DNA of 61,790 nt, counting the filler, from Diploschistes diacapsis (lineage: Eukaryota), in assembly GCA_023645945.1 (NCBI GenBank). It is 7 parts of 7 records of this genome, joined end to end, with 100 filler letters (N's around TTAATTAATTAA, not from the genome) between each part and the next. Parts side by side here need not be neighbours in the genome. Positions count along the whole stretch, not along the records: positions 1 to 28,081 come from JALAIB010000153.1; 6 more parts are not named here. One strand, given 5' to 3'. The notes beneath the pieces were generated by a model that was given only the letters and a program-made list of their open reading frames with translations, ran no database searches and was not told where the DNA came from. A program made the translations under genes and the position numbers. Below, one piece after another: positions 6,709-56,571 of the stretch. Each line of letters starts with the position of its first letter. The first letter of the stretch is position 1.

Positions 6709-8300
6709 ATGTCTCCAAGGACGAGTGTGTTAGCCATAGGCGGCCATGTCGTCCTGGCCAGAACTACTGTGTGGCTTGGAGAGAGGTTTGATCGTGCCTT
6801 TCGAAGTGTTGCCGCAACTGACCTCTGTTGCTAGGCACTATTGGACCTGTGACTGAAATGCCAGAATTCACCAACTCCATTGGAGAGCTTACATTCACGC
6901 AGCAAGGCATCTTCGTAGCTTGCATCCTTCTTCGATATCGCTCTCATCTCTTGCTAGTGGTTATTTCTGAGACAAGATTTCACGCAGATATGGCATCCTC
7001 ACAGCTGGATTGATCACTATGGCTAGTGCTGTACTTTCTGCCGCAGGTGTATACCTTGTGGAGATCCCACCAGTCGAAACACGAGGCATTACAGCTTGCC
7101 GACTACAGCTCTATGTCGTTGTTGGCATCTTAATGGGCTACTTCATTTATGTTTGGGACATGGACCCTCAATGGAAGCCTGGCTTGGAGGACCTCACTCA
7201 TCATCCAGGCCATGTTCGCTCTCATGCTGAGCATCGGCATATTCTTTCAACCTTCATCACCACGCTGGCTGATCTACAATGGTCGTAAGGATGAAGCAAG
7301 ATCTGTCCTCTAGAGCCTTAGGAGCACTCCGGAACGGGCTGAGTTGGAGATCCAGGAAATTGGGGCAAGCGTTGTGCAGGATACGAATAACACCCAATCC
7401 CGCTTCAAAGAAATGATCTCTACTCGGTACTACCAGTGTACTCTCCTCAGGGTCTTCCTAATGGGCTTCCAGCTGCTCACCGGCGTAAGATTCCCTCCCC
7501 ATCCGCCCTTGCATCCGGTACTGACTTAAAACCCCAAAGATAGACGCCATCTTCTACTTCGCCTCCATTCTCTTCAATCAAGCCGGCCTCACAGGCACCA
7601 GTGCTTCGTTACTCCCTCCGGCGTGACTGGCATCTTCATGCTAGCGAGCGCCATCCCCGCGCGGATCTGGATCGACAAGTAGGGCTCTGTACGCCACCTT
7701 TGGCATCGTCTCCGCCAATGGCGTGCATCTTGTGTCGACTAAAGCGCAGTGGATCGTGATCGTGATGATCTACAATTTCGTCGCCAATTTCTTGTGGTCG
7801 TGGGCTGTTGTGAGCTTCCATTCGTTTGCGATTCCCCTTCCCACATTCTACCTTACGCTTTTCCCCCACCTTCCCTCATCCGGAATGCCAATCTCGTCCC
7901 ATACTTTCCCGCCCTGCCCTCCAACTCCGCTAACCTCCCTTACCCCCAAAAGGGTCGGCAAAATCTACACCTGCGAGATAATCCCCACCCGCCTACGCGC
8001 CTCCGTATGCGCGGTCGAACAACTTGCGAACTGGGCCGTCAATTTCTGCGTCGCGCTGACGGCGCCCCTCTTCCTGCATGGGTCGCCCTCCGGACCGTAC
8101 TTTTTGTATGGGTTCGCCACGCTGCCTGCGGTTGTAGTGTGCTAGCTCATGCGTGAGATAAAGGGGAGGAGCTTGGAGGAGATCGAGCGGCTTTTCGAGG
8201 GGGTGGATGTTCGGCAGGCAAGGGAGGAGGAAAGGGAGCGAGAAAAGGGAAGGGGGAGAAAGGAGGAGAGGGGCTACAACGGGGGGCTGCGAATGTAGGA
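6709..8300 (+). pseudogene. MFS sugar porter family transporter pseudogene (ends approximate)
   Basis: Fragments spread over different frames: GTIGPVTEMP, VYLVEIPPVETRG...QLYVVVGI, PSSPRWL, FQLLTG/IDAIFYFA, CEIIPTRLRA, NWAVNF, REIKGRSLEEIE. Stops at 7311-7313 and 8143-8145 and several frameshifts. Confidence 0.8.
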
Positions 8301-9214
8301 ACTACTACGTTGTAGATGGGTTAAGAGAAAAGGAGGGAAGAGAGGAGGGGAATCGGGTCACTTTAGGCTATAAGTCTTGGAAACTTTGGTTTCCGCAAGA
8401 GCTTAAAGCACAAATAGTGACTGCCCTTTCGATGGTACACATTGTAACCACAAATCACTTCTCTGCACATATCCCATGTCCGATATCTACAAGTCTTATA
8501 TTGTGCATCCCCACGCTTCATTCCGCTCCTCACTGCAGCCTCCGCTCGATCCTCGCCAGCGCCTCCCTCGCCTGTAAACTCCCGCTTAAACCCAACTTCG
8601 CCTTCAACTCGCGAACAAGTATCTTCGCACCCGCTCTATTCTTGCGGGCCACAATACTCCTCAACATCCTCGCCGTGCTCGCCCCTCGCAGGCCCCGCCA
8701 GGATCAAGCCCTGCGCCGGCAACACCGCGACGCTGCAGCTCCGGGAGTAGTAGGTGCTGCTCAAGATCAGCAACCGGCTCGAAACTGCCATGTGCGGTTG
8801 GAGTAGAGGCCTGCGTTGGTGTAGCATGGGAGCTTCGCCGGTAAAAACGGTGAGTGATGTCGAGGGTACCCCATCTCGTAGCTGTGAACTTTTTCCATCT
8901 CGCTCTTTGGCCGTGTTAGACGTCCTTATTTGTTACATCTTCCCTAGCATTCCCTACTTTAGTCACTGATACTAGTCTCGTAGTCTAATGTATTCCATTC
9001 CAAGAAGTTGAGCATCAATTGAATGTACCCCAGGCGACGTATGCAGTAACACACTTCACCAATCCTGTTTTCCATCTTAGGACTTGTGAGGACAGTATTG
9101 TAGACTTCTTAATTCCGAGATTTTCTGAACCAGAACTCTACGGGCAGAGGTGCTAAGCCTCGTTGAATTGGCTACCAAACTCAACGATGGACTCCATGGA
9201 CTCCAAATACTTTC

Positions 9215-19194: not shown

Positions 19195-19954
19195 GTTCGA
19201 AAAAAGAAAGCGACTAAGCAAGGTATGAAAGAAGTCTTTCTACTTGAGGATCAATTTCCTAGAGATTTTGGGTACTTTCAAGTGATCGTTGCCAATTGAA
19301 ATAGAAATATAACAGGAGAACTCGGAGTCCTTTATATCCTACCATGTAGACCACTTCCCATCTTGCGTGGTTGTACGTTAATTGTATGCACTTCTAATGT
19401 TGTAATGGCTCGGACGATCCGAGTAGGAGGGGCCGAGACTATCCACCTTTTACCTTTTCTGAATCCAACTAGAGATGGACAAGAGAGCTCGATATGAAGA
19501 TAGACGGACGAACACCTTCGTCCGAGACATTAACTTAGCGCTGAGTCATGGTATTACCGGAAAAAAGCAACACTGTACGCTAAAATGGTTTTCAAAAACT
19601 TCTACGTCTCCTTCACCCAAATTTGAATGCGCATTTGCCTGTAGTAGTAAAGGAAAGCTATAACCAAGGAACTAGTAGAATAAATAATGATGCTGAATTC
19701 ATTGCTTTGCTCGCTTTTATAAATGGTGGATATTGAAGAGTAATACAATAATAACAGTAAACGGCCCACAAAAAGGGAGCGAAATGTATTGAAAAATAAT
19801 TATAAATAACGGTCTGAATAATCGCTGCCGATGAATTTGGGGGGTTTCGACGCCGCTCAAAAAATACCGAGTATCAATATTGAAAATCCGGGCAAAACAT
19901 AGTAGTAGTAGTCGCGAAGAACTACTGAGTAAAGCTACACAAGGAACGTCGAGG

Positions 19955-22900
19955 ATGGAGGATGCGGATGGTATCGAGCGGCGGCTTACGCTTTCCTTAA
20001 AGTCAAGTTCCACGGCTTTTCGGATCTCTGAACTAAAGGCACTTCATGAGAGGGTAAGCACCTCGCGTGAGTTGAAGGATAGTGGAACAGCAGTGTCTCG
20101 TGCTAACGATCTTCTAGAGCTTTCAGACGCACGCCTACGTACTATCAACACCCTTCTATGGAGCACATATCCTGCCTATAGCGACCGAGCTTCTAGACAA
20201 GGGGTGCAGAGCTGCCTTCGAGCGATCTGGAGGCAGTCGCTAGTGTCATTTGCCGACTTCGTCACACTTTTCCAGGCGGAGGCTCTTAAGGCCGGACTCG
20301 CTTCCTCAAATGTGCTTGTCCTAATAGAATGGGGCGCCTTGGCCCTTCAAGAATGCAGAAAGAGCCCAGAACAATGGGAGCAATACGGTATCTCCTTGGT
20401 GACCGCGCACTCTCAACTTTTAGAGCTTCTAACCTCGATTCGACCAAAAGCGGGTACTAAGAAGTCGGGCCTTGTGGTAACTCGTCAGGCTCTCCGTAAT
20501 CTTTTTAGACATGAGTCTGCAAGAGCCGGCATCATCGAAACGATCGTGCTACAACTTTCCGCAAAGAGTCCCTTGGGGTATAAGAATGCAGTTATGCTGG
20601 GAGTAGTAGCTGGCGTATGCGCGCATATGCAGCAACCTGCAAAAGCTCAGACCCAACAAAATGGCGTCGTCTCTTCACCGCGAGCCGTGTTAGAGGGTTT
20701 GAAAAACCATTACTACTCTTTTTGGGTTCGAGAGGTCGTTGGATGCAAAACGCTCGTTTCAGGGCACATTGCCAACGCTTTTCATGACTTCTTCGCAGAC
20801 TTTACCACGCTTGAAGATTTGGAGAAAGAGGTTGTTCCTGCTCTTGAAAAAGCATTGCTTCGAGCTCCAGAGGTCGTATTGAACGACCTTATTAGCCCTT
20901 TAATCAATCCACTGCCTCTGCATCTGGATCTCTCTGATATCCTTGCTAATCGCCTCCTGAAACCATTGCTTTCAAATCTGAAATCTGCAAATGCCGCTAT
21001 AAGAGATGGTGCCCTCAGAGCCTTTGGTACATTGCTAAAGCGATGCAAGAATGACAATTCTCTCGAAATGATCATGAACGAGATTCTAAAACCTTTGACG
21101 ACGTCCAAAGTGCCTTCTGCAGAGCAGCGTATTGTTTCAGCCAAGGTTCTTGAGATGTTACCGAGCTCCATCTCAAGGTCGACTCAGATATGCAGCGGCC
21201 TTGCTGGAATGGTACTAAAAGAGCCTAACGAAGCTGCGGTTTCGGTCGAGGCTAGTGCGATGACGGTTCATCTTGTTATGCTGATGCCCCTTGACCAAGC
21301 GACAACCGAGCTTATATTAGCAACTATTTCTAAGGGACTTGGAGACAAAAAGCCCACGCTTCAAAGAATTTGGGCTCTTAACGTAGGTAAGCTGTTATGG
21401 GCGCTTAGAAATGGGTCAAACGCTGCATCATCTGCCAAGGTTGTCGATACCGTTTTGCCAAAGATGATTGATCTATATAACGAGGTCGTGATGAACCCCG
21501 TGTCAGCTGGGCAATCGGGATCAATTGTCATAGCTTATATCTTGACCAGCCTGCACAGCTTTCTAAAGAACGTCGGTAATGCGAGTTGCAAAGCTTTGTT
21601 ATCGAAGGCGGCAGTCATTCAGCAGGCTTTGATGTTCGATCCAAAACCCTCTTTTCTATTAAATTACAGAGTTTACACAAAGCTGGTGACCGAGGTCGAT
21701 CTTACCTGGTTTGTTCGAGCACTGGCGGAGTGCTTCACACAAGCTCTTTCCCAAGGCCAAGCGCCAAATGTTTGTACCGCCCTAGTTCAAGCATGGCTAT
21801 ACACAATAGCATCATCTGCTGTTCACTATGAGGTACGGCGTCAAGCAACAGGAGCGTTATCGCGGCAATACCAGCAGTTACCAGCTGAAACCTCTCATGT
21901 GGTCGTGGAGGGATTGTGGGTTTGGCTGAGAAACTTTAAAACAGAGATCAAAGATTCCGCTGCGTACCTTTCTCAGATCACACCAACCAAACTACTACCT
22001 GCCCTACACGCAATATGCCCTCCCGCAGTATTTCAGGACAAGTCCTTGAGTATGCTTAACAGTAAAGTGCTTGAGGATCAGCTGATTGACCTGCTTGTAC
22101 TATGTCACCCTGCAATTCTTCCTGCGACTAGTTGGATAGACATTTGTCTTGAAATGGCTCAAGATCCTGGATCTTTGGTCAACAGACGGACTAGGGACTG
22201 TCTTGACAAAGTGTCATCTGTACTTCGTACTAATGACGCTTCTGATCGACCACTCGAGGCCATCAAGGTTGCTGCGTACAGTACGTATGCCGAGCTCGCT
22301 TTTGTCGCATCGTCATCAGTATTGCCCTTACTTGTGGACCAGATCAAGAGCGACTTAGATCTCGGAGAGTTTAGCCAATGCAGCCCAACAGACTTTGCAA
22401 TAGCACGAACACCAGAAGGGACGACATTTATTGACGTCTTGAACAAGAAAGGCCCAAACGAAGCATTAGACAAAGGAAGCAGTGACTACGAGCTTTTGAA
22501 ATGGGAGGCCGACGTTCGAGCGCAGCAAGCCGCCAGGTACGGTCAACAGAAAAAACTGACCGCGGATGACCAAGCAAAGATCAATACACAGCTGTCAAAA
22601 GAGGCCGATATTCGTAAACGAGTTCGGCACTTGGAGTGTCAGCTGCAGCGTGGATTTGGTACCATTCGAGCTCTCGCTTTAGGTCCTCCTACGAATGCTG
22701 AACTGTGGATGGGTTATAGTTTAAAAGTATTGATCGATATCATACAAGCAGGCGTCGGGTTGCTAGTTGACGAGAGCGCCGCTGAGGCATTTATTGCTTG
22801 CGCCAATCTTGTCACAATTCGGTTGGGTCCTCTACGTCAATTTATCGGCGTTGCTACTCTACGCTCACTTGGTTCAAGTCACCTTCCGGAGTATCTGCTT

Positions 22901-25900
22901 CAGGAATCGTTAGGAGGTGGGTTCATGAAACCTTGCACGACCAAGGCTAATTGTCCAAGATCTTGTGACGAGAGTTCTCTATCGTCTTCGGATCGCTGGA
23001 GAACAGCGACCCTTCGATGTTGTCTCATTAAGCTATATGCTGCCACTTGCACATATTGTACTTGCGAAGCACGGCATTGGGCATAATGATGCGGATCAAG
23101 CTGACGAGCAGATAACCCTTGCTCTTGAGTTCCTCTCATTTCATTCAGATCTATGTTTGTATCATCACTACCTGTCCATCCCTGCGCTAACGCAAACACA
23201 GGCTCCAATCAGAGCCTGCCCAGGGCAGATATGATAAGTGTATTGATTCGCTCAATGCAGGATTTCAACCAGCACTATCGTCTCATCAAAGACTGTATGC
23301 TTGACATGAGCAGGTCAATGGCTCCAAATATCAATTCTGTGGAAATCAAAAGCTTGCTAAAAGGCTCTATCGTTCCCGAAGTTTCCGTGCGGGCTGCGGT
23401 TCTACAGGGGATCCGTGATTTCATTGACTTAACGGACCTTGATTTTAGTGAAGAAATCTGGCTAGCTAGTCACGATGATGACGAGGAGAACGCTGACATT
23501 GGCAAAGCAATATGGGAGGAAAATGCCTTAGAAGCCGATGGCAAAGACGCTCTGAAGCTCTTGCCTTATCTTAGAAGCAAAGACAAGCAGCTACGTAGAG
23601 CAGCCGCTCGTTCCATTGCGGGGTGCGTGTCTATTGACAAGACTGTTTTTGATGATGTTCTCGACAAACTCCAAGGAGAGTACCGAGAGAAAGCGAAGCC
23701 GAAAGTTCAAGAGCGCGATGCATATGGTGTGATTAAGAAGAGTGACTTGGGTGATCCATGGGAAGCCCGTAGCGGCGTTGCTCTCGCTTTCAATGAACTC
23801 GCCCCTGCCTGGCATTCGGAAGCGCTCCTTCCGGGGATACAATTTATGGTCAAAGATAAAGCTCTAGGAGACCAGAATAGCTCCGTGCGTGATGAAATGA
23901 TCGAAGCTGCCGTTAAGATCATATCGATCCGCGGGGGTGAAAAGCTAGAACAGTTAATGAGCATGTTTGAAGGTGCTCTTGCGGAAGCTGAGACGAGCAG
24001 TGCTGGATCAGACCTCGTCAATGAGGCTGTGGTAATTCTCTATGGTGCGTTAGCGAGACATCTGAAGAGCGGCGACCAGAGAGTACACAAAGTCGTAACC
24101 AAGCTATTACAGACTTTAAGCACACCCTCTGAAACGGTTCAGTATGCCGTAGCAGGGTGCTTACCCCCTCTGATCAAAACGTCACTCGATAAAGTTCCTC
24201 AATATATTCAGCAAACTCTGGACGAGTTATTGCAATCGAAGAAATACGCAAGTCGACGAGGTGCTGCATATGGTCTTGCCGGCGTTGTCAGTGGGAAAGG
24301 AATTTCGGCCCTACGTGAGCACAGAATCATGTCGACACTAAAAACCGCTATAGAGAACAAGAAGGACCAAAACGGCCGACAAGGAGCCCTGTTTGCTTAC
24401 GAGCTTTTCTCACTAATTCTTGGGAGAGGCTTCGAACCGTACATCATCCAACTGGTGCCCCAGCTAATAGCAAGTTTTGGCGACACAAGCACAGATGTTC
24501 GTGAAGCGTGCCTTGACGCTTCTAAAGCATGCTTTTCCAGCTTGAGCTCATATGGCGTCAAAGTCATTCTACCAATACTTTTAGAGGGCCTCGATGAGTC
24601 CCAATGGCGTAGCAAGAAGGGTGCGTGCGAGCTGCTGGGTGCTATGGCATATCTTGATCCCCAGCAACTTGCTTCCAGTCTCCCGGACATCATCCCTCCT
24701 TTGACGAATGTCCTCAACGATAGTCACAAGGAAGTCAGAGCCGCAGCCAATCGCAGCCTACAACGTTTTGGTGAGGTCATTAGCAACCCGGAAGTCAAGT
24801 CGCTTGTGAACATCCTTCTGAAGGCTCTGAGTGATCCTACAAAATACACGGACGACGCACTCGATGCACTGATCAAGGTCTCGTTTATGCACTACTTGGA
24901 TGCTCCGTCTCTCGCTCTAGTCGCAAGGATTCTGGAAAGGGGGCTAGGCGACAGATCAGCAACTAAGAGGAAATCCGCCCAAATCATTGGCAGCCTTGCA
25001 CACCTTACAGAAAGAAAAGACCTGACCTCCCATCTTCCGATTCTGGTTAGCGGCTTACGGACTGCAATCGTGGACCCTGTACCTACAACACGTGCAACAG
25101 CTTCCAAAGCGTTAGGGTCGCTTATCGAGAAGCTCGGGGAGGAAGCTCTTCCGGATCTCATTCCAAGCCTCATGGCCACCCTCAAATCCGACACGGGAGC
25201 AGGAGACAGGCTGGGTTCTGCGCAAGCTTTGAGTGAGGTTCTTGCTGGTCTAGGTACTGGCAGACTCGAAGAAACTCTTCCGACGATCCTACAGAACGTA
25301 TCGAGTTCTAGACCCACTGTCAGGGAAGGATTCATGTCGCTGTTCATCTTCTTGCCCGCTTGTTTTGGAAACAGCTTTGCAAACTTTCTCAGCAAGATCA
25401 TTCCTCCAATTCTGGCAGGTTTGGCGGACGAAGTAGAGTCGATTCGTGAGACTTCGCTCAGGGCAGGCAGACTTTTGGTAAAGAACTTTGCTACCAAGGC
25501 TATTGATCTGCTCTTGCCAGAGCTTGATCGCGGTCTTGGAGACGACAATTACCGTATTCGTTTGAGTTCTGTGGAGCTCGTTGGTGACTTGCTTTTCAAC
25601 CTCACTGGCATCAGTGGAAAGACCGAACAGGATGAGGAAGAAACCGGAGCCGCCGAAGCCGGCCAGTCGCTGCTCGAAGTGCTTGGAGAGGAGAAAAGAA
25701 ACAAGGTATTGTCTTCTTTGTACATCTGCAGATGTGATACGTCGGGGCTGGTTCGATCGGCAGCGATTGCTGTCTGGAAGGCACTGGTTGCTACCCCTAG
25801 GACTCTGAAGGAGCTCGTTCCAACATTAACGCAAGCCCTTATCCGAAGGCTAGCCAGCTCGAATATGGAACACAAAGTGATAGCGGGGAATGCTCTAGGT

Positions 25901-28081
25901 GAGCTGATAAGGAAAGCCGGAGAAGGTGTCCTTGCAACCTTGCTGCCTACTCTCGAGGAGGGTCTGCAGCTTTCCACCGATACCGATAACAAGCAGGGTA
26001 TCTGTATGGCTCTTCGAGAAATCATTTCTTCGTCATCTCCGGAGGCTCTAGAAGACTATGAACAAACTTTGATAACCGTCGTTCGCACTGCGCTGGTTGA
26101 CGGCGACGCCGAGGTTCGGGATACTGCTGCTGAAGCTTTCGATTCGCTCCAGCAGATCTTCGGAAAGAAAGCGGTTGATCAAGTCCTGCCGCATCTGCTC
26201 ACCCTTCTTCGCTCAGAAGATGGGGCAGACACGGCGCTAGCAGCATTGCTTACGCTCCTAACAGATAACACAAGATCGAACATTATTTTACCAAATCTCG
26301 TTCCGACGCTTTTAAAGCCACCTATCAGCGCTTTCAATGCCAAAGCTATCGCTTCTCTTGCAGAAGTCGCCGGACCAGCCATGAGCCGCAGACTGCCGGT
26401 TATTCTGAATGCACTTATGGATGCTATCATCAGTACCAAAGACGAAGAGCTGAGAAGCGAGCTGGAAGCTTCATTCAATTCCATTCTTCTTTCCGTGGAT
26501 GAGTTCGACGGCCTTAATACTATCATGAGCGTTATGTTTGCGCTTGTCAAGCACGACGATCATCGCAAGAGAGCCAGCTCTGGTTCGCGCCTGGGCGACT
26601 TCATTGCGAAGGCCGAAGTAGACTTTTCTAGATACTACCCTGACATTATCCGCATTCTACTCCTCTCTTTTGACGATGGCGACACAGAAGTTGTCAAGGC
26701 AGCCTGGGGTGCGCTATCCGAGCTCATGAAACGTTTACGCAAAGAAGAAATGGATTCGTTGGTAGTCTCAACAAGACAGGTTCTTCAGCAAGTTGGAGTT
26801 GCTGGCCACGATCTTCCAGGCTTCTGCTTACCGAAAGGAATTAACGCGATACTTCCTATCTTTCTGCAGGGCTTGATGAACGGTACCGCAGATCTGAGAA
26901 CACAGTCGGCGCTCGCCATCTCCGATATCATTGACCGGACGAGTCCAGATGCATTGAAGCCATTCGTGACCAATATAACCGGACCATTGATCCGAGTAGT
27001 GGCCGAACGATCAGTGGATCTCAAGTCTGCCATTTTACTTACCCTGAACAATCTACTGGAAAAGATTCCGCTGTCCCTCAAGCCTTTCCTGCCACAACTT
27101 CAGCGAACATTCGCCAAGGCTCTTGCGGATCCTGGTAGTGAACTTCTCCGGTCACGAGCCGCAAAAGCCTTGGGCACCCTCCTTACCCTCAAGCCTCGTG
27201 TGGATCCCCTAATAGCTGAGCTCGCTATAGGCACCAAGACCCCCGATCCTGGCGTTCGCAATGCTATGCTCAAAGCTCTCTTCGAAGTCGTCAGCAAAGC
27301 AGGCGAGAAGATGAGCGAAGCCTCCCGCGCTTCAATCCTCTCCCTCATCGACAGCGATCCCTCCACTTCCGAGTTCTCCGACTCGACAATAACAACAAAC
27401 GCCCGCCTCCTCGGTGCCCTCATCAAGAACCTCCCCGCATCCGATGCCTCCCCACTAATCAAGCACCGCGCCCTTACAACCCGTTTCACCTCCTCCTCCA
27501 TCCTTAATCTAAACGCCATCCTCCTCGACTCCCCAACTTCTTTACTATCATCCTTCCCAGCTGAAACAGCCACCACAATCGCCGCCGCCATCTCCTCAAA
27601 AACGTCGTTCATCGCCGACAACGGTGTGCTCGCCGCGGGCAAATATTTCCTCCAGCCCTCCCTCTCCTCTTCCGACAGTGAAAACAACAACCACGAAGCC
27701 ATAACCCCCCTCCTCGAGGCTCTCGCGGGCGCCATACCCCCCGGCCAACCGGCCGACACGCGGCGCCTCGCCCTCGTTGTGCTCCGCACCGTATCCCGGC
27801 ACAACAACGCCGTCCTGCGCCCGCACCTCTCGCTATTCGCCCCGCCTGTCTTCGCGTCCGTGCGCGAGATGGTGATCCCCGTCAAGCTTGCCGCCGAGGC
27901 CGCCTTCCTCGCGCTCTTCGACGTGGTCGACAGCGAGAGCGCGGTGTTCGATCGGTACATGGAGGACGGGCCGGCGGAGCTGAGCGCGCAGCAGAGGAGG
28001 AGCATGGCGGACTATTTCAAGCGCGTGGCGCTGAGGCTGGCGGGACAGGCGAGGGAGAGGATGGAGGCGGAGGGAGGGAGG
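19955..28081 (+). CDS. GCN1: HEAT-repeat translational activator Gcn1 (last codons lost at the contig end)
   Basis: More than 2600 aa after removing introns at 20067-20117, ~22917-22960 and ~23154-23201. Conserved segments include RRGAAYGLAG, WRSKKGACELLGAMAY, GAGDRLGSAQALSEV and ITGPLIRV. Confidence 0.96.
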
Positions 28082-28181
28082 NNNNNNNNNNNNNNNNNNN
28101 NNNNNNNNNNNNNNNNNNNNNNNNNTTAATTAATTAANNNNNNNNNNNNNNNNNNNNNNNNNNNNNNNNNNNNNNNNNNNN
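28082..28181. other. Artificial contig linker (N-TTAATTAATTAA-N). Identical linkers at 33711-33810, 39338-39437, 44962-45061, 50577-50676 and 56188-56287
   Basis: Exact 100-nt blocks carrying a six-frame stop cassette. The flanking contigs fall in descending length order. Confidence 0.98.
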
Positions 28182-30800: not shown

Positions 30801-33800
30801 GCGGATTCGGCAGCGCATTTAGAGCTTTCGATTATAATCATGGTCTGAACCACTATGCCACCACCTTCAGCATCTCCAACAGCCCCAGCACCCCCAGCAC
30901 TCCCAGCGCCGCTACCGTCGCCGCCGCCACACCTGCTACTCAGCCCCAGCACCATCTACGCCAGCACTTTCACCACCTCCATCCAGCACCCCCAGCACCC
31001 AAGCAACGTTACTTCTTTTTTTTCTTTTAGCTTTTAAAAGCTTCAACTTCGTCAACAGCACACCGACTTGTATAGACTTAAGCTGAGTACAGTACTCCAG
31101 CCAAGCTGCGACTAGCCCTTGCACGGGAATTGCCTCACGTTCCGATCGAAGCAAGCTCCAACAGCAAGTCCGTTGTCCAGATCGGTGCCGTATCGACAAG
31201 TCTGGCTAGTAGTCCAAACAGTGAGCGGTACAGCGGCTATTTGCATGGCCATGTGCAACAGCACGATGCTATGCCTCATTCCTACTTTAGTACTGCATTT
31301 GGTGGCAGGTTGTTGAATCCACAAATCCCCCATAGCTAAGTCTTGTTTCTTGTCCTTGCGATGTTTCAAAACGAAATCTTGTTGTTAACTATTTCACCAC
31401 TCGTTCAAGTACCTTAATACCTGCTAAGCGCACGACTCCCATTAAGCATATCTTGATAAAATCGTCTGTGGCGTTATGTACCGGTTTTGGAATGATCTCT
31501 GCCCCTTGTTACCAATTACGGATACCAGAAACCAGTATGTCAAGGAAAAGACCCGGACGCTCTCTTCGCTTTGATATACTACCCGCTACGTCCTATACAG
31601 CTCCAGCGCTAATGAATCTCTCAATATTGTTCTCGACATCTTGCAAAGCTTCCACCTGCTCGAGCACAACCCAGCCGGTTGCGCAAAAGCCGGAAGCAAA
31701 AGGTGAGGGTAAGATGGATACTCCACGCCAATTACCTCACGCCAACTGCCTCTGAGCGAAAGGGGCAGCATTCTGGAAGGCTCTATACATATGCTGCCCT
31801 AACAACGGTCGAAGCACGACTAGAGCCTCATGATCAACAACATGCACCAGCCCAGCCAGTCAACTAGCCAGCTTCTGCAGCTACAGTACAGTTTGAACGC
31901 CACTGAGACGCACTGCAACATCAAGTCACTCTTTTTCCAATACATGTTCTAGGTGCCTACTTACGCAATCGCAAAACCCATAAAAAACCAACGCGCGTAT
32001 GCCAACTACTCACCCGAAGGGGAACCAACTAGTAGCGTAACCCCATACCAAGCCTCTCTCGCCGCAACTCCACGTTGAACAATAAGCCTGCTTACTCCAG
32101 AATCTCTGAGCTCTCCGTTACGCTTGGTCATGCAGGCTCCCGCGCCTGCATATTGCTTATATATTTTGTAACAGGACACAGCCTCGCAAGCTTGGTCCAC
32201 TACGGAGATATATGCAGTACAGGTCCGTACCAGGAGCGTGTGAAAGTCATGCCGGGTATACTCGGTAGTGAGCAACTCTGACAGAATTCTAGATCAGCTT
32301 CTTCTGGAACTCATAATAGCGAGACCACACTTCTTAATGGAGAAACCTGTCGTTCGATATAAAGGGAGCTCCACTCGAAGCGAGCTAATTATGTATGTCA
32401 AAACATCTCTGTGTCGCACCGTCCGACGGGCTGTACCCTCGACGCCTGAAGCGAGACCAATAAGGGTATCATACATACCGTCACACACACTCACGCAGAG
32501 GTATGTAGTACGTGGTCTCCACTTTCCATATCACAACGAAATCTTTTTCGTATCCTCTAGCATACTTCTTTTGCTTAGCAATATCTTTAACGCCAACAAC
32601 CACGCTTATACATCGACCGTCATCCTACATCGGAATACAATGACGATGGCCTTCATCGCCGCCGCCACCAACCAGCGCGCAGCATGTCGAGCCAAATTCT
32701 ACCATACCTAGCACCTATTCATTCTTCCTGCTTCATACCACTTTAAACCCCAATCCCAACATCACCGCCTAATCTGTCAATCCCGCCAGAGCCGCTGCAG
32801 ATACTATCGGCCACCCAGACACCTAGAGGAGAGAGTTGGGCGGGTTGTTGAGAGTCTGCCGTCTGCAACAGGGCTCACGAGAACTTCACGGACGCTACAC
32901 AGACCTTTCCAGTAGCAGCCCCGACTCTGTGCCCAAGCAGCGACCAGCGACAGCAGGACGCTTTTTGTCTCTCTCACGTAGGGGGGCAGGGGGATTATTG
33001 GGCGGCGGCGGCAGCGAGAACGCGGAAGGAAAGAGCTTACTTAATACGGTGGTGGGCGGCTGGTGTGTTCAACGTTCATGGTGCGTATCCGAGTAGGTGG
33101 GTAGGTAGGTAGGTAGGCTGGTAGGATGTAGCTCTGGCGGCATCCAGCATTCAGCATATAGTATTCAGCATCCAGCATCCAGCGCTATACTCTGTAAAAA
33201 CAAACCGACCACACAAACAAACAAGGCTCCAAACAAAAGTTGCCAAGCGACAAAGACGTATGGCCAGCAAGCTTAGAAACAGGTTGTTCCAAAGAAAAGC
33301 TTTGAAAAGTTTGGGGGAGGAGGAGGGAACTCTTAATCTGTTTCTTTTGCCGTTTCGACTCAGGAGCACCAAGCTGCTCCGCACACCCCTCTCCATACAA
33401 AACTTTTTTTTTTTGATAGGGGGGGCCTCACATCCATCCCCCGTACACAAAAAAATTCAACCCCGTATTTGGCCTTTCCTCAAAGCAATGCCCCGAAAGT
33501 CGATTGGGGAAAAAGTCATGTGTGTGAGGGCAGGTACGGGTATATATTTCTATGTCCAGAGGCGGTGCGGAGCAGGGAGTTCCTCCCCAGCTAAATCCGA
33601 CCGTTTGGGGCAAACTCAATGTATCGAAGGGAAAAAGTTTCAAACAAACTTCACGCGCGCGCACACGCACGACACACATGCCCTATACACGTTTTCTTGA
33701 GGTTAAAAGGNNNNNNNNNNNNNNNNNNNNNNNNNNNNNNNNNNNNNNNNNNNNTTAATTAATTAANNNNNNNNNNNNNNNNNNNNNNNNNNNNNNNNNN

Positions 33801-33865
33801 NNNNNNNNNNGGTAAGGTAAGGTTGAGAGATACAGGAAAAGGTAGTATCAAGATGATAGACGTAC

Positions 33866-35753
33866 CACATTGCTGATATCAGCACACTTGATCAGCAACC
33901 CACACGCCAGCGTCTTGTAGTCTTCCAGATCTTTGACGGCCCAGCCATCGGTCCCGCCGTTGTGCGCCAGCTTCTGCTGCAAATTATCCAGATCGGTCAT
34001 GTATTTGAAGTGCAGCTGCATGTCCGTCGCTAATATCGATTTGATAAGCAGAGACCGGATCCGGGTGCTGTTGTACGCGGCCGGCCAGTACCGGCGTAGA
34101 ATTTGTGAGTATGCAGCGCAGTGGAAGGCTTCGAGCACGGAGTTGTCGTTGTAGAGCTGTGCGAGAGGCGCCTTGAGCGCGACGAGGAAAGCGTTGTTGA
34201 CGCCGGGGTGGCCGACGTCATGGCCGATTGCGGTCACCAGCAACACAAAGGCTTCAAAGGGGGTCAGGAGGAGCTCGATCGACGAGAGATTGCTGTGGGA
34301 TTTGGCAGGCCGTGAGTTTGCGGGGTATGGTGGGAGCGTGCCAATCTGTACGAGGAAGTGGAATATGGCTTGCAGGACGTCGATCACATGCCGGAAGTTG
34401 TGGTAGAGGACGAAGCTGTTGTAGGCGGATTTGCAAGCTGTGAGGTAGTGTTTGAGGTCGTCTGAATTGGTCAGTCAGCAATGAACGAATATCGCAGATA
34501 CGAGCTAGCCCAGGGTCTGGGACTGACCAGAGGGGAGCCGCCACTCTGCCAACTCCGGCATGGCCAAGGCGTGTTGCAGCATCAGGTAGCCGGCATGCAC
34601 CAGCTCGTCGTCGGCGAGGTCATGCGCAGGGAAAGCCCAGGTTCCAATGGCATCCTCGACGAACCGCGCTCGCTGCCAGGAGATTCTGTACAATTCACTA
34701 AACATCGTCAATTAAGCCTTCATCAACAACAACAACAACAACAACAGGTGCCAACTTACTTCGACGCAGGCTTCGAGACTGCAATCTCCGGCTTGCAGAT
34801 ACCGCTCATCAACGTCGATACCCTGGCGCTCGTTAGCCGAAGGCAACGCGCAATACGTTTGCAGGATAAAACAAGCCAGACTTACATGACTTCGCGAAGG
34901 TATGCGTACGGCCTCTCCTCATCAACCCCTACCCACGAAAGCTTCCTCGATTTCTTGAGCTCCAAAAAGGCCGGCCGGGCTTTGGTGCCCTCAATGTGTG
35001 CGCGATACGCGAGCGTGGACATGGCGCGCAAGTGATCCGGGTCCAGTGGACTCGACACCACATCCACCGCGCCCATCTCGATGCACCGGATGGCGTGCGC
35101 TGGACTTACACGGTTGAGCGGAGGCCCCGAATAGTGGTCTTCTACCCTTTCCACTTGGCTCGAGTCGACCACCGCAATCGGCACGATCAACTTCGAGAAA
35201 TGTCTTTCCGATATCTCAAGTACTATGTGCTTCAGGAGCGCCAGGCCGTGGATTTCCTCGTCGCCGGATGCTTGTGAGAGCTTCTTGGGGTTGGTCTGTG
35301 ATATGGCTGTGGACGGATAACCGTAGATCTGTGAATTCCGAGCGGAGCCGGGGTTTCTGCCTGGTTGTAGATCGCCTGTTACGGGCAGAAACACGAAGAC
35401 GGGATTGCAGTCGGTGGTGACGGAATCGAGCAGTGCGGTTCTTGTGAGACAGGAGGATCCTGTGCGGAGAACGTGGACTAGAGCGAGGGCAGTCTTAGCG
35501 AGGTCGACTCATTAGGGGAAGACAGTAAAGAACGAGACGGGAATTCCATAATTAAAAAAAAAAGATTCAGATAGTTAGAGAGTAAGAGACTGCGATTCAG
35601 TTACTTACCGCCGTTGAAAACGCTGAGGAGGCACCGGACATCGTCCAGCAACTCTTTGGGTTCCGAGGATGGAGCGCACGCTCCCGACTCGAAGCGGTCT
35701 GTGTGGGCTCGGTCGTCAAGCAGGATCACGTTAATTGCCGCATAGTCCATCAT
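33866..35753 (-). CDS. PDE2: Class I (high-affinity) cAMP phosphodiesterase, PdeH/Pde2-like, 3' truncated by the contig end
   Basis: YHNFRHVIDV, HDVGHPGVNN, SVLEAFH, ILATDM and KCADISN. N-terminal receiver-like segment (RCIEMGAVDVVSSP, WVGVDEERPYAYLREVMVS). Four complete GT-AG introns and the start of a fifth. Confidence 0.93.
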
Positions 35754-47461: not shown

Positions 47462-50400
47462 ATGCTTAGCATGGGAGACAAAAGTGAAATCTTAGCCCAC
47501 TATGGCGTATCCAATGCTTTTCCGACCTCGTGGCCTACTGGAAAAGACGACAGTGATGGCTCCGAGGTTGAGAGTGAGCCGAATTCAAAACCTACCACAA
47601 GAAAAGGCGGAAATGTTCGGCGGTCAAAATCGAGGTATACCGTTCTAGAAAAGAATTGGGCAGATCGGAAAAGTTTGGTACCAGGCGCACAGAAGACTCG
47701 AGAGGGAGCCGACAACCTCGTGCAGAGGGACGAGCCCGATGCGCTGGGGTTTTCAGATAGCGTAGTAGGGGAACTAAGGCTGAAAGGGCTTTCAGTAGAA
47801 GAGGACCAAGGGCTTCGAAATCGGTTTCTGTTATCATCCACTACGTTCGCCCCGGCCATGTATCTATCCCTGGTTCACTCGGATGCGTCTACAAAGGAAT
47901 TAGTGCAAGGCTTGGAGTTTCTATCGAGATCGATTGACCAGAAATCCGCTTCCCTCAAAGTCTTGGTCGAAAATAATTTTGAGCGCTTCGTGAGAGCGAA
48001 AAGTGTGATTGACAACGTCTACACCGAAATGCGCAATCAAGGTAACGAAGTGGACCTCGACAGAGCTCGCCCTGTTTCGAAGCATCAGAGCAGAAGTAGC
48101 TTGCACTATCGGAACGTAAGTGGCCAGAGCATAGGAGGAAGACAAAGCGTGAAGCCACCGCAAACCGAGCGGAGAAAGCATGCTCTGACGAAGGAATCCG
48201 AGTATGGCGTCTATGGAATCAAGGCCCCACTGATAGACATAGTCGCCAAAGCCGAAGATGTCTGGGGTCCTGCCCTTGGTGGCAGAGAGCGCGAGAACAA
48301 TCTCAAAGCGGTCCTCGAGTCGATAGACCGATCCGAGGGCGTCATGGAGGTTGGTCTGGAGATTGCCGATTATATCAAGCGCAAAGACTACGAAGCACTC
48401 GTCAGGCAGTACGCAAAAGCTCGAGACTGCGTCAACTCTGCCCGGGCGTCTGCAGAGACCGCCACGAGGAGCGAGGTTCAGCTTACAGACTCCCAAATTC
48501 ACCAGATTGTCATGACCGCTCGAATGTGGCTCGACGTTGAAACACAGATCGATAACTTTAAGCGAGTGGTTTGGCGAGACTTGACCAGCGTACAGGCCAA
48601 CATGGCAATGTCTACCGACAGAAGCCACCAAGACGACTATGTTGCCTTGATTAGTGTGCTTCTACAGCTCGGCGTCGAGGATAACCCCATCTGGATATGG
48701 CTACTGAGTCGCTACGAATACCTCAAGAATAAGATCAATTCTACCTTTGAGCGGTTGAGGGTTGAGATCGAGGTTTGCCGAAGACGTCTGGCGAGTGCAG
48801 AGAAGCCAAGTCTTTACTCTTTAGCCATTCATTTCAGAAGTCCTACTCAGACTAGTGCAGAAGAGAAACTCAAGCATCTTGATACTGCTCCGATACTCGA
48901 ATTCTGGGAACTCATAGTGCATGCAATGGGTAATCTGTTATCTCTGCAGGGAGGTGTCCTGAGTGAAATTATTGATTTCTGGGATAAAGCGCAGTCTTTT
49001 ATCGATGGAAAAGCCCAGCGGACATTGCCTACTGGTATCGATGGTAGCAGTCGCCGATTTCATAAGCTATCTCCAGATGATGTACATGCTCTTCAGAGGG
49101 GCGCCGTTGAATTGATTGACGCGCTGCGAGAGAATATCTTTTCTTTCTTCGCCGACCCACCCATCGACGATATCTCTATGCTCTTCTCGCCAGTCCCTAC
49201 AGAATCCCCAAACACCCCGAGAACTCCGCGGTCTGCTACATTATCGCCCTTCTCAAAGCCCGACCAGCGCTTTAACATCGACTTGCTGAGCCCACCTCCT
49301 CCGTCACCGAGGACAAGCGAACCATGGGCGGCCTTCGCATTCTGGCCGCCATACGCCAACTCACTAAGCGGTGTGCATTACTTGGGAAGGCTTCTCCTGC
49401 TTCTTGCAACGGCCGCGAGCGAGATGGCAGCCCTTCCACCGATAGCTTCTGGCTCGTCAGGTCCGAAGAAGTTGAAATTATTGCTGAATGCGGGCCGAGA
49501 AAGAGCAGCCAAAGCGATCTGCGCAGCCTGGAGCAACGACGCACAATCCTGCAAGGTCCTCGAAGATTGGACTCGAGGGTCAGATAACAAGGACGTGACT
49601 CGGATGCCTTCCGACTTTGCTGCTTTTGAGGGCTTCGTCCTGTCAGGATTGCAGAAGATCCTGTACATTCCGGAAGCTGCGATGACGAGGAGGATGTCTA
49701 TGGATATCATCGCGCCTCCACCGAATACCCTACTGCAGATGGCTAGGGACCAATTCATGACTACTCTGTACAGGACACTCGAGGGAATGCGCGAAAACGC
49801 CGAGCGGCCTGTCAATACCGGACAAAATGTTTGGGCGAAGAACAGCGAGACCCAACTCAGAGGCCGGGCGGATGGCGCCGACTCCCTAGCCGAGAGAGGC
49901 ATGAGTGATGCGATCGACGCCAGCAGCAAGGTAAGCAGCCATTGTCCCTTTCTTTTCCCAATATTTTTTGCGGCTGCAACTCCCATGAAATCATAGCAAA
50001 AAAAAATAATTCTGCTAACAACCGACCGCAGTCAATCCGCCTCCTCCTAACCCTCTCCAACCTCACCCTCCTCCGCTCAACCATCATCCCCTCCCTAATC
50101 ACCCAGTTCGAAAACTCCTTCACCATCGCCCTGACCGACGCCCGCAAGACCATCGCCGAAGCCTCCTCCCGCTTCGACTCGGGCCTCTTCCAAGCCTATA
50201 TCCAGCCCCACGCCGACAACCTGCACGCCCTCATCACCGCCGCCATCGCCTCCCCCAGCTGGCCCCCGGCCGCAAACACAAAACCCGACACCGTCCGCCC
50301 CTACGTGTACGAAGTCCTCCTCGAGCTCGTCCGCCTGCACACCGAGCTCAGCACGACCGCCGAGCCCCTCGCCGTCCCCGTCCTGACCTCGCTCTTCGAA

Positions 50401-50464
50401 ACCATCTGCAAGGCCCTCCTCGACGCCTTCCGCGCCCGCGCAACCGCCTCCTCCGCCCTCTCCG

Positions 50465-50505
<41 letters not shown>

Positions 50506-50576
50506 CCAAACACCTCATCCCAGAAAACCCACGCCCACACCCACGCCCACACCCACGCCCACGCCCACGCCCACAG
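47462..50576 (+). CDS. SEC5: Exocyst complex component Sec5 (3' truncated), intron ~49931-50030
   Basis: FLLSSTTFAP, SIDQKSASLKVLVENNFERFVRAK, LGVEDNPIWIWL, CKVLEDW, RLLLTLSNL and VRPYVYEVLL. Confidence 0.93.
50469..50574 (+). repeat. (CAG/CAA)n and (CACRCC)n microsatellites in frame with SEC5
   Basis: These encode a polyQ run and a (HA/HT)n run immediately before the contig end. Confidence 0.9.
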
Positions 50577-50676: not shown

Positions 50677-51978
50677 AACACAAACTCGCTCATCACCTTC
50701 CCCGTCCCCGGCCCATTCTGGATCCCCCAACACGTATGCCCGGCCGCCAACCACAACCCTGCCGTCCGCGTCGGCCCGACAAGCGGCCCGCTCGCCGCGC
50801 CCTGCACATTCGGCAGATAGCACGCCTGCCTCACCAGCACCTCCCCGTCCCTCAGCTCGTCCGAGATGCTGGAAACATGGTCGATGATATCCTGGCACCG
50901 CTGCAGGTCCGTCTCCACGTCTTCCGACGTTTTCGGCAGCGGCACCAGCGTGTCGCCCTCGCCGCATGCATACGCCTCGTCGTTGGGCCGCGCGTAGATC
51001 TCGGGCGTGACGTGCTTCCGATTCTGCTTCTGCGTGCGGTCGGAGGTCGACGGAACGGGCAGCGCGATGTCCGTGAACACGGCGAAGGCGGAGATGGGTT
51101 TTGCGGGGCGGATGGTTACGCTGTGGGCGCGCAGGCCGGAGATCGGAGCCGACGGCAGGAGATTCTGGGTCCAGGGCCCGGCGGCGAGGACGATGTCGGT
51201 TGCGGCGAGCGTGGTCGGCTGGGAGGTGGAGGGGTCGATGTAGGTGACCGATTCGACGGCGGAGTTGGAAGGGGAGGAGGAGTAGTTGATGGAGGAGACG
51301 GGCGCGCGGGTGAGGATCCTGGCGCCCTTTTCGGCGGCGAGCGAGGCCATGGACGTGGTGAAGTGGTAGGGGTGCACTTGCGCCGTCGTGGACGGGTCGC
51401 CCATTTCGCTGTAGTCGAGTGCGCAGTCGGCGGAGATCCAGTCGAGGTCGGCGGGGATGCCGGCGGCGCGGAGACGGCCGAGGGCCTCGGGGGTGCGCTT
51501 TTGGAGGGAGACGGCTTGGCTGTTTTTGGTGCCGTTGGGGGTGGGTTTGGAGTTGTTGGCGTTAAGAGAGCGGCCTTTGGCGCTGAGTTGCCCGCAGTGT
51601 ACGCGCCGGTAGCCCCATCGGTTGGCGCCGTCGTGCTCAGCGGCCAGCTCGGCGTGCAGGCGGTAACTCAGGGGGACGATGTTGCTGGGGTAGGCTGTGT
51701 TGCGTCAGTTCTTTCGATTGGAGGATCGTAGGCTTGGAACAAGGGGTACCCCACAGTGCCAGGAGGCCTCCTGCCTTTCCTGATGCGCCACCCGCTATCA
51801 TCGAAGCTTCAAGCAAGGTAATGCTGTGCTTGGATGGATCATACGATGAGTGTCGGGTTAGGAAGTATGCTGTCATGCACCCTATTATTCCCCCGCCTGA
51901 AGGCTGTTAGCATGCCATAAGAAGAACCTCGAGTAGCAAACCTATTATAACGATGTCCTTCTTTCCCGATTCGGCCAT
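50677..51978 (-). CDS. DAO-family FAD-dependent oxidoreductase (Tda3-like), 3' truncated, 2 introns
   Basis: DIVIIGGGIIG, AGGASGKAGGLLA, TTAQVHP, PEIYARP, QACYLP and GHTCWGIQNGPGTG. Confidence 0.9.
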
Positions 51979-54937: not shown

Positions 54938-56571
54938 TGGCCTATGGTACATGCATCATGCGCGGAGTTGTGGATTTGGCCTGCCTGGGTTGGTGGATGA
55001 GGCATAGCTGGGGTGCTGGACTTTGCGATTTGATTGCTGGCTACATACGGTACAGAAATGGGGGCATATGGTAGCTTTCTGGGCTTGTGGATGTGGATGG
55101 CTTTTCGAGATACCCCCCTTGCTTGGACCGGAGCTTCTACGTGGTATGCAGGCATGGTATACAGTCCGGTAGCATGGGCAATTTATTGACATATTGTGGG
55201 TATGAATGAGTTTCGCATTAGTTATCACATAAGAGCTTCGGGAGTCCTCCTTAAGGCCATAATTTAATCGAGGAACCCTCTGGCTGTTCTACCATTGCCA
55301 AGGGAAAAGCGGGAGGGATAAATTTTCCCGACCTAATTTTCGCTTTAACAGAAACAGAAACGAAAGGAGATGCTCCAACTCTGGCAAGTCCCGCTTTGAT
55401 CAATAGTTGGTTGCCAGATACTCAAAAATACTTCAGAACACTCTCCCATAGCACATCAAGAAGCCCACCAACAACCATATATAACTGATGCGCTAAACTT
55501 TATATTGAGCTTGTGCCAGCGCGCCTCTGCATGTCTTCCGCGCCATCAAGCTCCTCTCGCCAGATTCCGTAGGCTGAAGATTGCGGAAGTCTCCGAAGGC
55601 GATCGTGCTTCTTGCCGCGTAAATTTGAGGGCTGGATGTATGAGAGATCTACTTTCTCGTGGCGCCTACTTGGCTCTTTCACGGCCAGATTTTATCTTAT
55701 CTCGGCCCTGGTAGCAACGGTGGTGGGGCAGTTCTTATAGGGGGAGGTAAAGTATGTGTTGTTTGAGTAGCCCAGTGGTGAGATCCATTCTGCGAGTGGT
55801 GAGTTGTGTCGGATGATCTTTGAAAGCTGTAATGCACGAGGATTTGTTCTGAGATACAAGTCGCTATGGTGTAGGTGGCGCGGCGAATAAAGCAGGAATC
55901 GGGCTGATTATCCCAATTGCATCTAGAAGATCAGAGCGGGATAAAGCGTTCGCTTTGCATCCCCACTTATCGCAATATCATGCCCCAACTCCCCAATCTA
56001 TGACCTTATCTTTCGCATGCCTTCACCGTCTGTCTTCTCTGTACCGCTCGTCTTCCCCTTCCCTTCCTCATGCTCCTCCTTCGCCATCTCAATCGCGACC
56101 CTCTTCTCTTCCGCCTTCTTCTCTTCACCTGTCTTCTCCTCCCCCTCTCCCTTCCCCTCTCCCTTTCCCTTGCCGTCCGCCCCACTCNNNNNNNNNNNNN
56201 NNNNNNNNNNNNNNNNNNNNNNNNNNNNNNNTTAATTAATTAANNNNNNNNNNNNNNNNNNNNNNNNNNNNNNNNNNNNNNNNNNNNGGCAGGGGGCTGG
56301 GGGGCCCTGGTCGGGCGTTGGGCCGTATATAGTGTGCATGGATGGAGCGTGGTTGAGTATTACAAGTTTAGAAAGCTCATGCCATTATTCATAGAGATGT
56401 GTATCTCATCCCGGTCCTGTGAAGGGCAACTGGGGTATAAAGTACAAGCTGTCTGTGGATACCGAATCCCAGAGTCCAAGCCCTCTATTTCTATGCGTCT
56501 TCATTGGAGAAAGAGCGTCATGACTCGTAGATTAACTCAATGTCGAGCCCGTGAAACTTCATCAGTGGGCC

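What the first reader, a model, noticed from the sequence alone, without database searches (positions are those of the whole stretch)
27300..28081. Recurrent GC-rich islands with an abrupt C-rich to G-rich strand-skew flip, overriding codon usage
Seen: inside the single GCN1 frame, 27481-27540 has 29 C and 3 G, while 28021-28080 has 9 C and 36 G. The preceding ~7 kb of the gene looks unskewed by eye. The same polarity occurs inside the minus-strand FAD oxidoreductase (50701-50760: 31 C, 10 G; 51241-51300: 6 C, 29 G). By eye it also occurs at 7850-8350, 8500-8870, 10780-11560, 32640-33120, 33890-34450, 46180-46900, 54420-55000, 56570-57050 and 61520-61790. The pattern is strand-symmetric, about 0.5-1 kb wide, often near gene 3' ends, also present in a pseudogene and in non-coding DNA, and frequently at contig breaks. 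Inference: these mark fixed sites of a strand-asymmetric process. Candidates are meiotic DSB hotspots with GC-biased conversion, replication origins, or termination-linked R-loops. This is the most pervasive unexplained structure in the window.
Basis: partly seen in the sequence, partly recalled or inferred. Interest (0 to 1): 0.7.

Follow-up and report, generated by a model that had tools for sequence, protein, structure and literature searches.

The report
Skew islands at convergent gene ends
In this lichen fungus the last kilobase of many genes, mostly those that point toward a neighbouring gene, is GC-rich and switches from C-rich to G-rich; this is a sharp form of a known but unexplained fungal pattern and may be a footprint of where meiotic recombination acts.

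Summary
Real, not an assembly artefact. The counts are exact, the flip holds at four-fold sites, and a contig from another study spans it. In 0.92 Mb of this ostropalean lichen fungus, 56 of 78 peaks picked on GC alone flip C-to-G and 3 flip G-to-C. They centre mostly 200-400 bp upstream of stop codons. New here: strong islands occur at 17 of 53 convergent but 2 of 58 tandem gene ends (p=7e-5; 10 of 26 vs 1 of 26 with Pfam-confirmed neighbours). Arms fade by about 750 bp, show no clear flanking-base signature and are not true inverted repeats. Averaged 3'-end skew (PMC3315797) and GC-rich 'inverted repeats' in a lichen (PMC7186782) are published, and this scan has logged similar islands in other fungi. 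Best mechanism, inferred (0.4): GC-biased, strand-directed heteroduplex repair at convergent 3' ends, where budding yeast places axis proteins and resolves crossovers. Rivals are overlapping-transcription mutagenesis, selection and origins. The polarity is opposite to human break-hotspot mutagenesis. No recombination map or outgroup DNA was available.

The parts
19835..28081 (+). GCN1 gene (two long ORFs, introns between); the last ~33 codons are cut off by the contig end
   Evidence: Pfam Gcn1_N and HEAT_GCN1 families; homologues run about 33-36 aa further; the missing end was not found elsewhere in G000
27100..27850 (+). C-rich upstream arm of the GCN1 island
   Evidence: Four-fold C:G 17:4, 25:1, 20:3, 29:7; two-fold C:T 12:2, 14:1, 10:2 while A:G stays about even (4:4, 3:1, 4:2)
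27850..28081 (+). Flip zone (about 27850-27920) and G-rich downstream arm, about 260-330 bp before the inferred stop; ends at the contig break
   Evidence: cumulative minimum 27919; a contig of run X3 spans 27604-28081 with 6 differences
28082..28181 (.). Artificial spacer between unrelated contigs
   Evidence: N runs around TTAATTAATTAA; 1-28081 is G000:C591
10751..11560 (-). Island in the 3' end of a DEAH helicase gene that converges on RPL19 (ends 10429, +)
   Evidence: GC peak 340 bp before the stop; spanned by contigs of X2 and X3
7850..8350 (+). Island at the 3' end of a broken sugar-transporter gene
   Evidence: Pfam Sugar_tr, sequence, C:G 75:24 then 16:80
8500..8870 (-). Island over a short minus-strand ORF (8530-8703) facing the transporter pseudogene; gene status not shown
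32640..33120 (.). Weaker island (GC 0.57) with no gene call in the final model
33848..34474 (-). Island at the 3' end of a cyclic-nucleotide phosphodiesterase gene, next to a contig start
46140..46900 (-). Island in an isocitrate/isopropylmalate dehydrogenase-family exon
50029..50576 (+). C-rich arm at the 3' end of SEC5, cut by a contig end
   Evidence: Four-fold C:G 21:1, 20:3, 23:4, 17:1, 10:0; Pfam Sec5
50677..51704 (-). Island in the 3' part of an FAD-dependent oxidoreductase (DAO family), cut by a contig start
54420..55000 (+). Island at the 3' end of a CRT10-family gene
56570..57050 (-). Island at the 3' end of a flavin monooxygenase gene
61520..61790 (.). Island cut by the end of the window; no Pfam family on the overlapping ORF

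Best explanation
SHOWN: the islands are ~1 kb compositional footprints in the terminal part of genes, mostly convergently transcribed ones. On each side of a centre about 300 bp before the stop, the strand whose 3' end points to the centre has gained C at silent sites, in no clear sequence context, and the effect fades by about 750 bp. INFERRED: they are the long-term footprint of meiotic heteroduplex repair concentrated at convergent 3' ends, the sites where budding yeast gathers cohesin/axis proteins and resolves crossovers. Step 1: recombination intermediates form at, or are pushed by transcription to, these sites. Step 2: mismatch repair there favours G/C alleles, which raises GC. Step 3: repair excises mainly the strand facing the centre and handles G:G and G:T better than C:C and A:C, adding T-to-C, G-to-C and G-to-A on that strand. 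With step 2 this cancels the A/G shift and leaves C up, as seen. The arms pair loosely only as a by-product of composition, which probably helps break short-read contigs.
For: Position: 36 of 78 GC peaks lie within 600 bp upstream of a stop (11 expected, maximum 21 in 200 draws; among coding centres 35 of 59 vs 16 expected). Convergent 17 of 53 vs tandem 2 of 58; 10 of 26 vs 1 of 26 with Pfam-confirmed neighbours; within-stretch permutation p=0.028. The peak lies further upstream when the facing gene is closer (rho 0.66, p=0.014, 13 pairs under 1 kb). Yeast Red1 peaks sit in 3' ends of convergent genes (PMC4530585); Top3 and crossovers accumulate there (bioRxiv 10.64898/2026.03.13.711646); yeast gBGC is crossover-specific and attributed to mismatch repair (PMC3649680 abstract); C/C is repaired worst and G/T best (PMC3218862). 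Arm length resembles conversion tracts of 284-950 bp in filamentous ascomycetes (PMC10294615). Two-fold sites upstream: C:T odds ratio 2.0 (1.8-2.3), G:A 0.95 (0.82-1.10); downstream G:A 5.1, C:T 1.4. No clear 5'/3' neighbour effect. Strain divergence is not raised in islands: 10 of 1053 vs 30 of 2753 bases, p=0.052 against a 1.8-fold rise. SPO11, MAT1-1-1 and six MutS-domain matches are present.
Against: No recombination, conversion or break data exist for this organism, and no outgroup DNA was obtained (one search gave one unrelated locus), so substitutions are not polarised. Step 3 is fitted after the fact. Polarity is opposite to mutational asymmetry at human break hotspots (PMC7615360). 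Zymoseptoria shows no GC-recombination correlation in intergenic windows (PMC5844332) and only a weak conversion bias; that paper cites tetrad work finding no GC bias in some fungi. Introns respond far less than four-fold sites (GC 0.56 where flanking four-fold GC exceeds 0.8, 14 introns; one in SEC5 is 0.35). The convergent-tandem contrast loses significance when each gene's upstream GC is subtracted (p=0.09-0.18) or when the flip size is tested (p=0.08-0.20). The sliding of the peak is weaker over all 18 pairs (p=0.057 for the peak, 0.78 for the flip). 36 of 53 convergent ends have no strong island, and tandem ends also show a small 3' GC rise (p=0.022).
Confidence: 0.4

Rival explanations
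1. Transcription-coupled mutation or repair where convergent transcription overlaps. Each polymerase exposes its non-template strand (pausing, R-loops) after passing the centre, and A-to-G and C-to-G changes make that strand G-rich on both sides.
For: Gene-anchored and enriched at convergent ends; the peak slides with neighbour distance; a mutational transcription link is McLean and Tirosh's main hypothesis (PMC3315797); terminal GC skew and R-loops occur in human genes (PMC3787257).
Against: The C-rich arm would need read-through roughly 0.7-1.3 kb past the neighbour's stop. No clear deaminase, CpG or polymerase-eta context. Four-fold GC up to 0.97 needs a large rise in AT-to-GC mutation, yet strain divergence is not raised (weak). 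Human terminal skew favours tandem over convergent genes. No RNA holder was available to test overlap.
Confidence: 0.28
2. Selection on sequence for termination, pausing or chromatin at crowded convergent 3' ends (G-rich RNA near the end, C-rich before it, or a long hairpin).
For: Exons respond more than introns; divergence is not raised, as any fixation bias predicts; 24 of 76 canonical G4 motifs lie within 700 bp of a centre.
Against: No folding beyond local composition (z -1.1 to +1.1 against 50-base local shuffles, 10 of 10 islands); only short imperfect inverted repeats; the bias is spread over hundreds of silent sites, reaches introns (skew correlation 0.39, p=0.012) and persists in a broken gene.
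Confidence: 0.15
3. Replication origins: licensed helicases are pushed by transcription to convergent ends, and initiation leaves a local strand bias.
For: C-then-G is the polarity expected if the lagging-strand template loses C (established knowledge, recalled); spacing is one per ~12 kb in the sample.
Against: Skew is absent beyond about 750 bp at four-fold and non-coding sites, whereas fork asymmetry should persist; origins do not explain the GC rise.
Confidence: 0.1
4. Assembly or sequencing artefact, or an amino-acid composition effect.
For: Contig ends are enriched for strong skew: 24 of 65 starts and 26 of 63 ends exceed 0.3 in size against 6% of interior windows.
Against: Reading frames and homology run through the flip; contigs of two other studies span two islands with about 1% differences; the signal is strongest at silent sites; the protein's composition matches its homologues.
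Confidence: 0.02

Closest known systems
Opposite GC skews at the 5' and 3' ends of fungal genes (McLean and Tirosh 2011, PMC3315797; abstract and parts 1-2 of 4 of the main text read)
   Same: Sense strand C-biased, turning G-biased near the stop; affects four-fold sites and runs into the 3' UTR; cause unresolved. The stop-aligned mean of 166 genes here (skew -0.09 at -800, +0.19 at -100) fits their fourth species group.
   Different: In the parts read they describe averages and a gradient. Here it is a discrete ~1 kb GC peak with a mirrored flip, confined to a subset of genes and dependent on the orientation of the downstream neighbour.
GC-rich inverted repeats of Umbilicaria pustulata (PMC7186782; passages read)
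   Same: Lichen fungus, about 800 bp, high GC, loose self-complementarity around a gene, Illumina coverage drops.
   Different: Described as inverted repeats and as a technical problem, without strand skew or gene-end analysis in the passages seen. Here there is no true repeat. That they are the same thing is my inference.
Yeast cohesin/Red1 axis sites and Top3/crossover accumulation at convergent 3' ends (PMC4530585, passages; bioRxiv 10.64898/2026.03.13.711646, parts 1-3 of 7)
   Same: Location inside 3' ends of convergent genes; position depends on the facing transcript.
   Different: Mapped as protein and crossover positions in budding yeast; no GC peak or skew flip is reported in the parts read. 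Yeast peaks lie within 250 bp of the stop, slightly closer than here.
Strand-asymmetric mutagenesis at human meiotic break hotspots (Hinch et al. 2023, PMC7615360; passages read)
   Same: Mirror-symmetric strand bias over 1-2 kb around a fixed centre.
   Different: There the forward strand left of the break loses C and A, with trinucleotide context; here it gains C with no clear context.

Membership tests
Fungal gene-end GC skew (McLean and Tirosh) | Sense strand turns from C-biased to G-biased toward the stop codon, on average | tested here: met
   Stop-aligned profile of 166 genes
Fungal gene-end GC skew (McLean and Tirosh) | Holds at four-fold sites and extends into the 3' UTR | tested here: met
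   skew +0.13 in the 100 bp after the stop
Fungal gene-end GC skew (McLean and Tirosh) | C bias around the start codon | tested here: met
   Skew -0.17 in the 100 bp before ATG, 209 genes, with no GC peak
gBGC footprint of recombination sites | Local GC peak at silent sites on the scale of conversion tracts | tested here: met
   tract lengths
gBGC footprint of recombination sites | Excess of polarised AT-to-GC substitutions and shifted allele frequencies | not testable with these tools
   No outgroup DNA; only 40 of 452 variant rows were shown; the amino-acid proxy was uninformative
gBGC footprint of recombination sites | Coincides with mapped crossovers, conversions or Spo11 breaks | not testable with these tools
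   No map for this lineage was available
gBGC footprint of recombination sites | Introns and intergenic DNA affected like silent sites | tested here: inconclusive
   Same direction, much weaker
Break hotspot with single-strand mutagenesis (human type) | Forward strand loses C and A left of the centre | tested here: not met
   Opposite polarity
Replication-origin skew | Skew persists along the forks away from the centre | tested here: not met
   Gone beyond about 750 bp, measured out to 1500 bp
Inverted repeat or selected hairpin | Base-specific complementarity beyond composition | tested here: not met
Terminal R-loop skew (human, Ginno et al. 2013) | R-loops form over the skewed 3' region | not testable with these tools
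   No RNA or DRIP data; human cases favour tandem genes, unlike here

The most novel reading that the evidence does not exclude
The islands are a sequence-encoded map of where crossover intermediates are resolved in filamentous ascomycetes: transcription herds Holliday junctions to cohesin sites inside convergent 3' ends, and strand-directed, mismatch-type-dependent repair there has written a GC peak with a mirrored C/G flip. This would explain the unexplained fungal 3'-end skew, give evolutionary evidence for a mechanism so far shown only in budding yeast, and let recombination sites be read from a single genome.
Probability: 0.27. Interest if true: 0.82.

Novelty: new variant of a known kind. 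Interest (0 to 1): 0.52.

Why it matters
The 3'-end GC skew of fungal genes has been unexplained since 2011. Its dependence on a facing neighbour narrows the cause to processes set by convergent transcription and makes it testable with existing crossover maps and population data of filamentous ascomycetes. If meiotic, it shows strong biased conversion inside coding sequence in a group where gBGC was thought weak. In practice the islands distort codon-usage statistics and coincide with many contig breaks, so gene ends such as that of GCN1 go missing from short-read lichen assemblies.

Tried and rejected
Relatives' DNA: the metagenome scan with the single GCN1 peptide returned 1 weak, unrelated locus, so no substitutions could be polarised; run X6 gave only 3 short chance pieces. 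No RNA holder listed. The missing GCN1 end was not found in G000, so the focal gene's downstream neighbour is unknown. Amino-acid proxy for direction of change in GCN1: toC 4, toG 3, toT 2 in the C arm, toG 2 in the G arm, too few. Correlation of island strength within convergent pairs: rho 0.40, p=0.16, 14 pairs. MAT locus: MAT1-1-1 has no island although it faces SLA2, but most convergent ends lack one too, so this is uninformative. Polymerase-eta, APOBEC or CpG contexts: not seen, apart from a possible mild 5'-C effect. Hairpins and repeats: rejected. No tRNA or Rfam family in the window. Gene length: no effect (rho -0.03). Literature searches for the combination found no paper: GC skew, ends of genes, fungi, meiotic recombination: 0; GC content, synonymous, convergent gene pairs, ascomycete, recombination: 0; nothing on this by listing; the library lacks most subscription papers, and no supplements were opened.

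Full report
Source. The window is seven contigs joined by N spacers; 1-28081 is contig C591 of a 29.1 Mb assembly in 4361 contigs. The best GCN1 homologues (77% identity) include a cluster with Thelotrema lepadinum, then Stictis (71%), and the best-holding run is a lichen metagenome. I infer an ostropalean lichen-forming ascomycete.

Observation. The four counts are exact. In GCN1 the four-fold C:G ratio is near even for most of the long ORF, becomes 25:1, 20:3 and 29:7 from 27269, is 17:17 at 27809 and 1:9 at 27989. Minus-strand genes show the same + strand polarity. All 11 of 11 listed islands are significant. A contig of run X3 spans 27604-28081 with 6 differences, and contigs of X2 and X3 span the helicase island; X1 may be the source and is not counted. 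Homologues continue about 33-36 residues beyond the contig end, which puts the flip about 260-330 bp before the stop.

Genome sample. I analysed 107 pieces, 0.92 Mb with the window, about 3% of the genome, drawn mostly from long contigs and whole 9-10 kb contigs and so not a random sample. Peaks were picked on GC alone (500 bp, GC at least 0.60, at least 500 bp from an end): 56 of 78 go C-to-G, 3 G-to-C, 19 neither. The profile returns to background by about 500-750 bp. Contig starts are G-rich (19 of 65 above +0.3, 5 below -0.3) and ends C-rich (19 of 63 below -0.3, 7 above +0.3), against 6% of interior windows in either direction; AT-rich pieces were left out of that count. Some of these ends are simple purine/pyrimidine tracts, not islands.

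Relation to genes. I wrote a small gene finder. It misses and splits some genes. As a check, 39 of 50 frames it called under peaks hit Pfam, against 0 of 19 alternative frames (the other 21 ORFs sent came from peaks without a call). Of 78 peaks, 36 lie within 600 bp upstream of a stop (11 expected), 25 of them at 200-400 bp; none cluster at starts. Of 254 gene models, 153 passed filters for a clean 3' end with enough four-fold sites. Four-fold GC in the last 700 bp exceeds 0.7 in 17 of 53 with a convergent neighbour and 2 of 58 with a tandem neighbour (p=7e-5); 42 had no neighbour in the data and were set aside. For the 90 with a neighbour within 2 kb, Pfam confirmed 52 neighbours; among these it is 10 of 26 against 1 of 26 (p=0.005), and a permutation within stretches gives p=0.028. 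Against this, the contrast is not significant once each gene's upstream GC is subtracted (p=0.09-0.18, fewer genes) or for flip size (p=0.08-0.20). Among 18 convergent genes with a peak, it lies further upstream when the neighbour is closer: p=0.057 overall, rho 0.66 and p=0.014 in the 13 under 1 kb, a subset chosen after seeing the data.

Anatomy of the bias. With GC-only centres, upstream two-fold sites show C:T odds 2.0 but G:A 0.95; downstream G:A 5.1 and C:T 1.4; four-fold C:G is 2.0 upstream and 0.40 downstream; A:T is near 1. With centres refined on other sites the two arms are near mirror images, C/(C+T) about 0.8 on the centre-facing strand on both sides. Odds ratios vary little with the neighbouring base (C:T upstream 2.4-3.8), and CpG is 0.99 against 0.88 of expectation. 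Introns follow in direction but weakly (236 introns). Folding does not exceed local shuffles in 10 of 10 islands and only short imperfect repeats exist in 5 regions searched. In the X3 pieces listed (a part of its table: two island pieces, four GCN1 background pieces) divergence is 10 of 1053 against 30 of 2753 bases; a pure rise in AT-to-GC mutation predicts about 21 (p=0.052) and a fixation bias about 8 (p=0.57). This is weak, and the genes differ in constraint.

Mechanism. Any explanation must give a GC peak, a mirrored C/G bias without A/T bias, a range under 1 kb, no clear context, and a preference for convergent 3' ends. Biased heteroduplex repair fits all five if recombination intermediates concentrate there. 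In budding yeast, Red1 and cohesin peak inside 3' ends of convergent genes, placed by the facing transcript (PMC4530585, passages), and Top3 activity and crossovers move to these sites (bioRxiv 10.64898/2026.03.13.711646, parts 1-3 of 7). Yeast gBGC is crossover-specific and ascribed to mismatch repair (PMC3649680, abstract only). C/C is the worst and G/T the best repaired mismatch (PMC3218862, passages). If the centre-facing strand is the one excised, these efficiencies give T-to-C, G-to-C and G-to-A on it, and a symmetric GC bias cancels the last; this matches the signs but is my own post hoc fit. SPO11, MAT1-1-1, six MutS-domain matches and two cytosine-methylase matches are present. Against it stand the opposite polarity at human break hotspots (PMC7615360, passages), weak or absent gBGC in Zymoseptoria (PMC5844332, passages; PMC10294615, passages and section 6), and the weak intron response. 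Overlapping-transcription mutagenesis explains the position equally well and the GC level less well. I give 0.40 to biased repair, 0.28 to transcription-coupled mutation, 0.15 to selection, 0.10 to origins and 0.02 to artefact.

What is known. McLean and Tirosh (PMC3315797; abstract and parts 1-2 of 4) report the averaged C-then-G pattern, and this genome meets its tested features. The Umbilicaria paper (PMC7186782, passages) reports 1464 inverted repeats of median 820 bp, 467 with mean GC 68% and Illumina dropout, probably the same structure seen as a technical problem. Human terminal skew (PMC3787257, passages) favours tandem genes. I did not test those notes on their DNA. I found no paper on the dependence on neighbour orientation, within the limits of the library; supplements were not opened and could bear on that.

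Verdict. Real, genome-wide, a sharp variant of a known unexplained pattern, with one added constraint (convergent 3' ends) that makes the cause testable. Mechanism unproven. Interest 0.52.

Noticed in passing
window 9360-10429: RPL19 (+) lies about 18 kb before the end of GCN1 and converges on the helicase, whereas several database GCN1 homologues are annotated fused to RPL19, suggesting tandem adjacency elsewhere. The adjacency appears broken in this species.
   Followed up: partly
window 30391-30572: Perfect 43-bp inverted arms, with a further 23-bp pair inside, followed by short TTTTCGAAGC-like tandem units at about 30620-30800; looks like a transposon end.
   Followed up: no
window 19530-19838: Short AT-rich element upstream of GCN1 that matches six other contigs of run X1 at under 90% identity; no tRNA or Rfam hit.
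   Followed up: partly
window 7019-8300: Sugar-transporter gene with in-frame stops and broken frames that keeps a strong 3' island; the 8082-8943 stretch differs from X2 at 29 of 849 bases, about twice the coding level.
   Followed up: partly
window 39438-40700: AT-rich block (GC 0.24-0.35), resembling RIP-decayed repeat DNA; small contigs sampled also have GC near 0.3. RIP was not tested.
   Followed up: no
L042 967-7900: Mating-type region: SLA2-like (+) facing MAT1-1-1 (-), then an unassigned gene facing a minus-strand gene; only the alpha-box family was searched, so heterothallism is not shown.
   Followed up: partly
window 36300-36900: G-rich stretch (skew up to +0.57) at ordinary GC with no C-rich partner arm and no gene call in the final model.
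   Followed up: no
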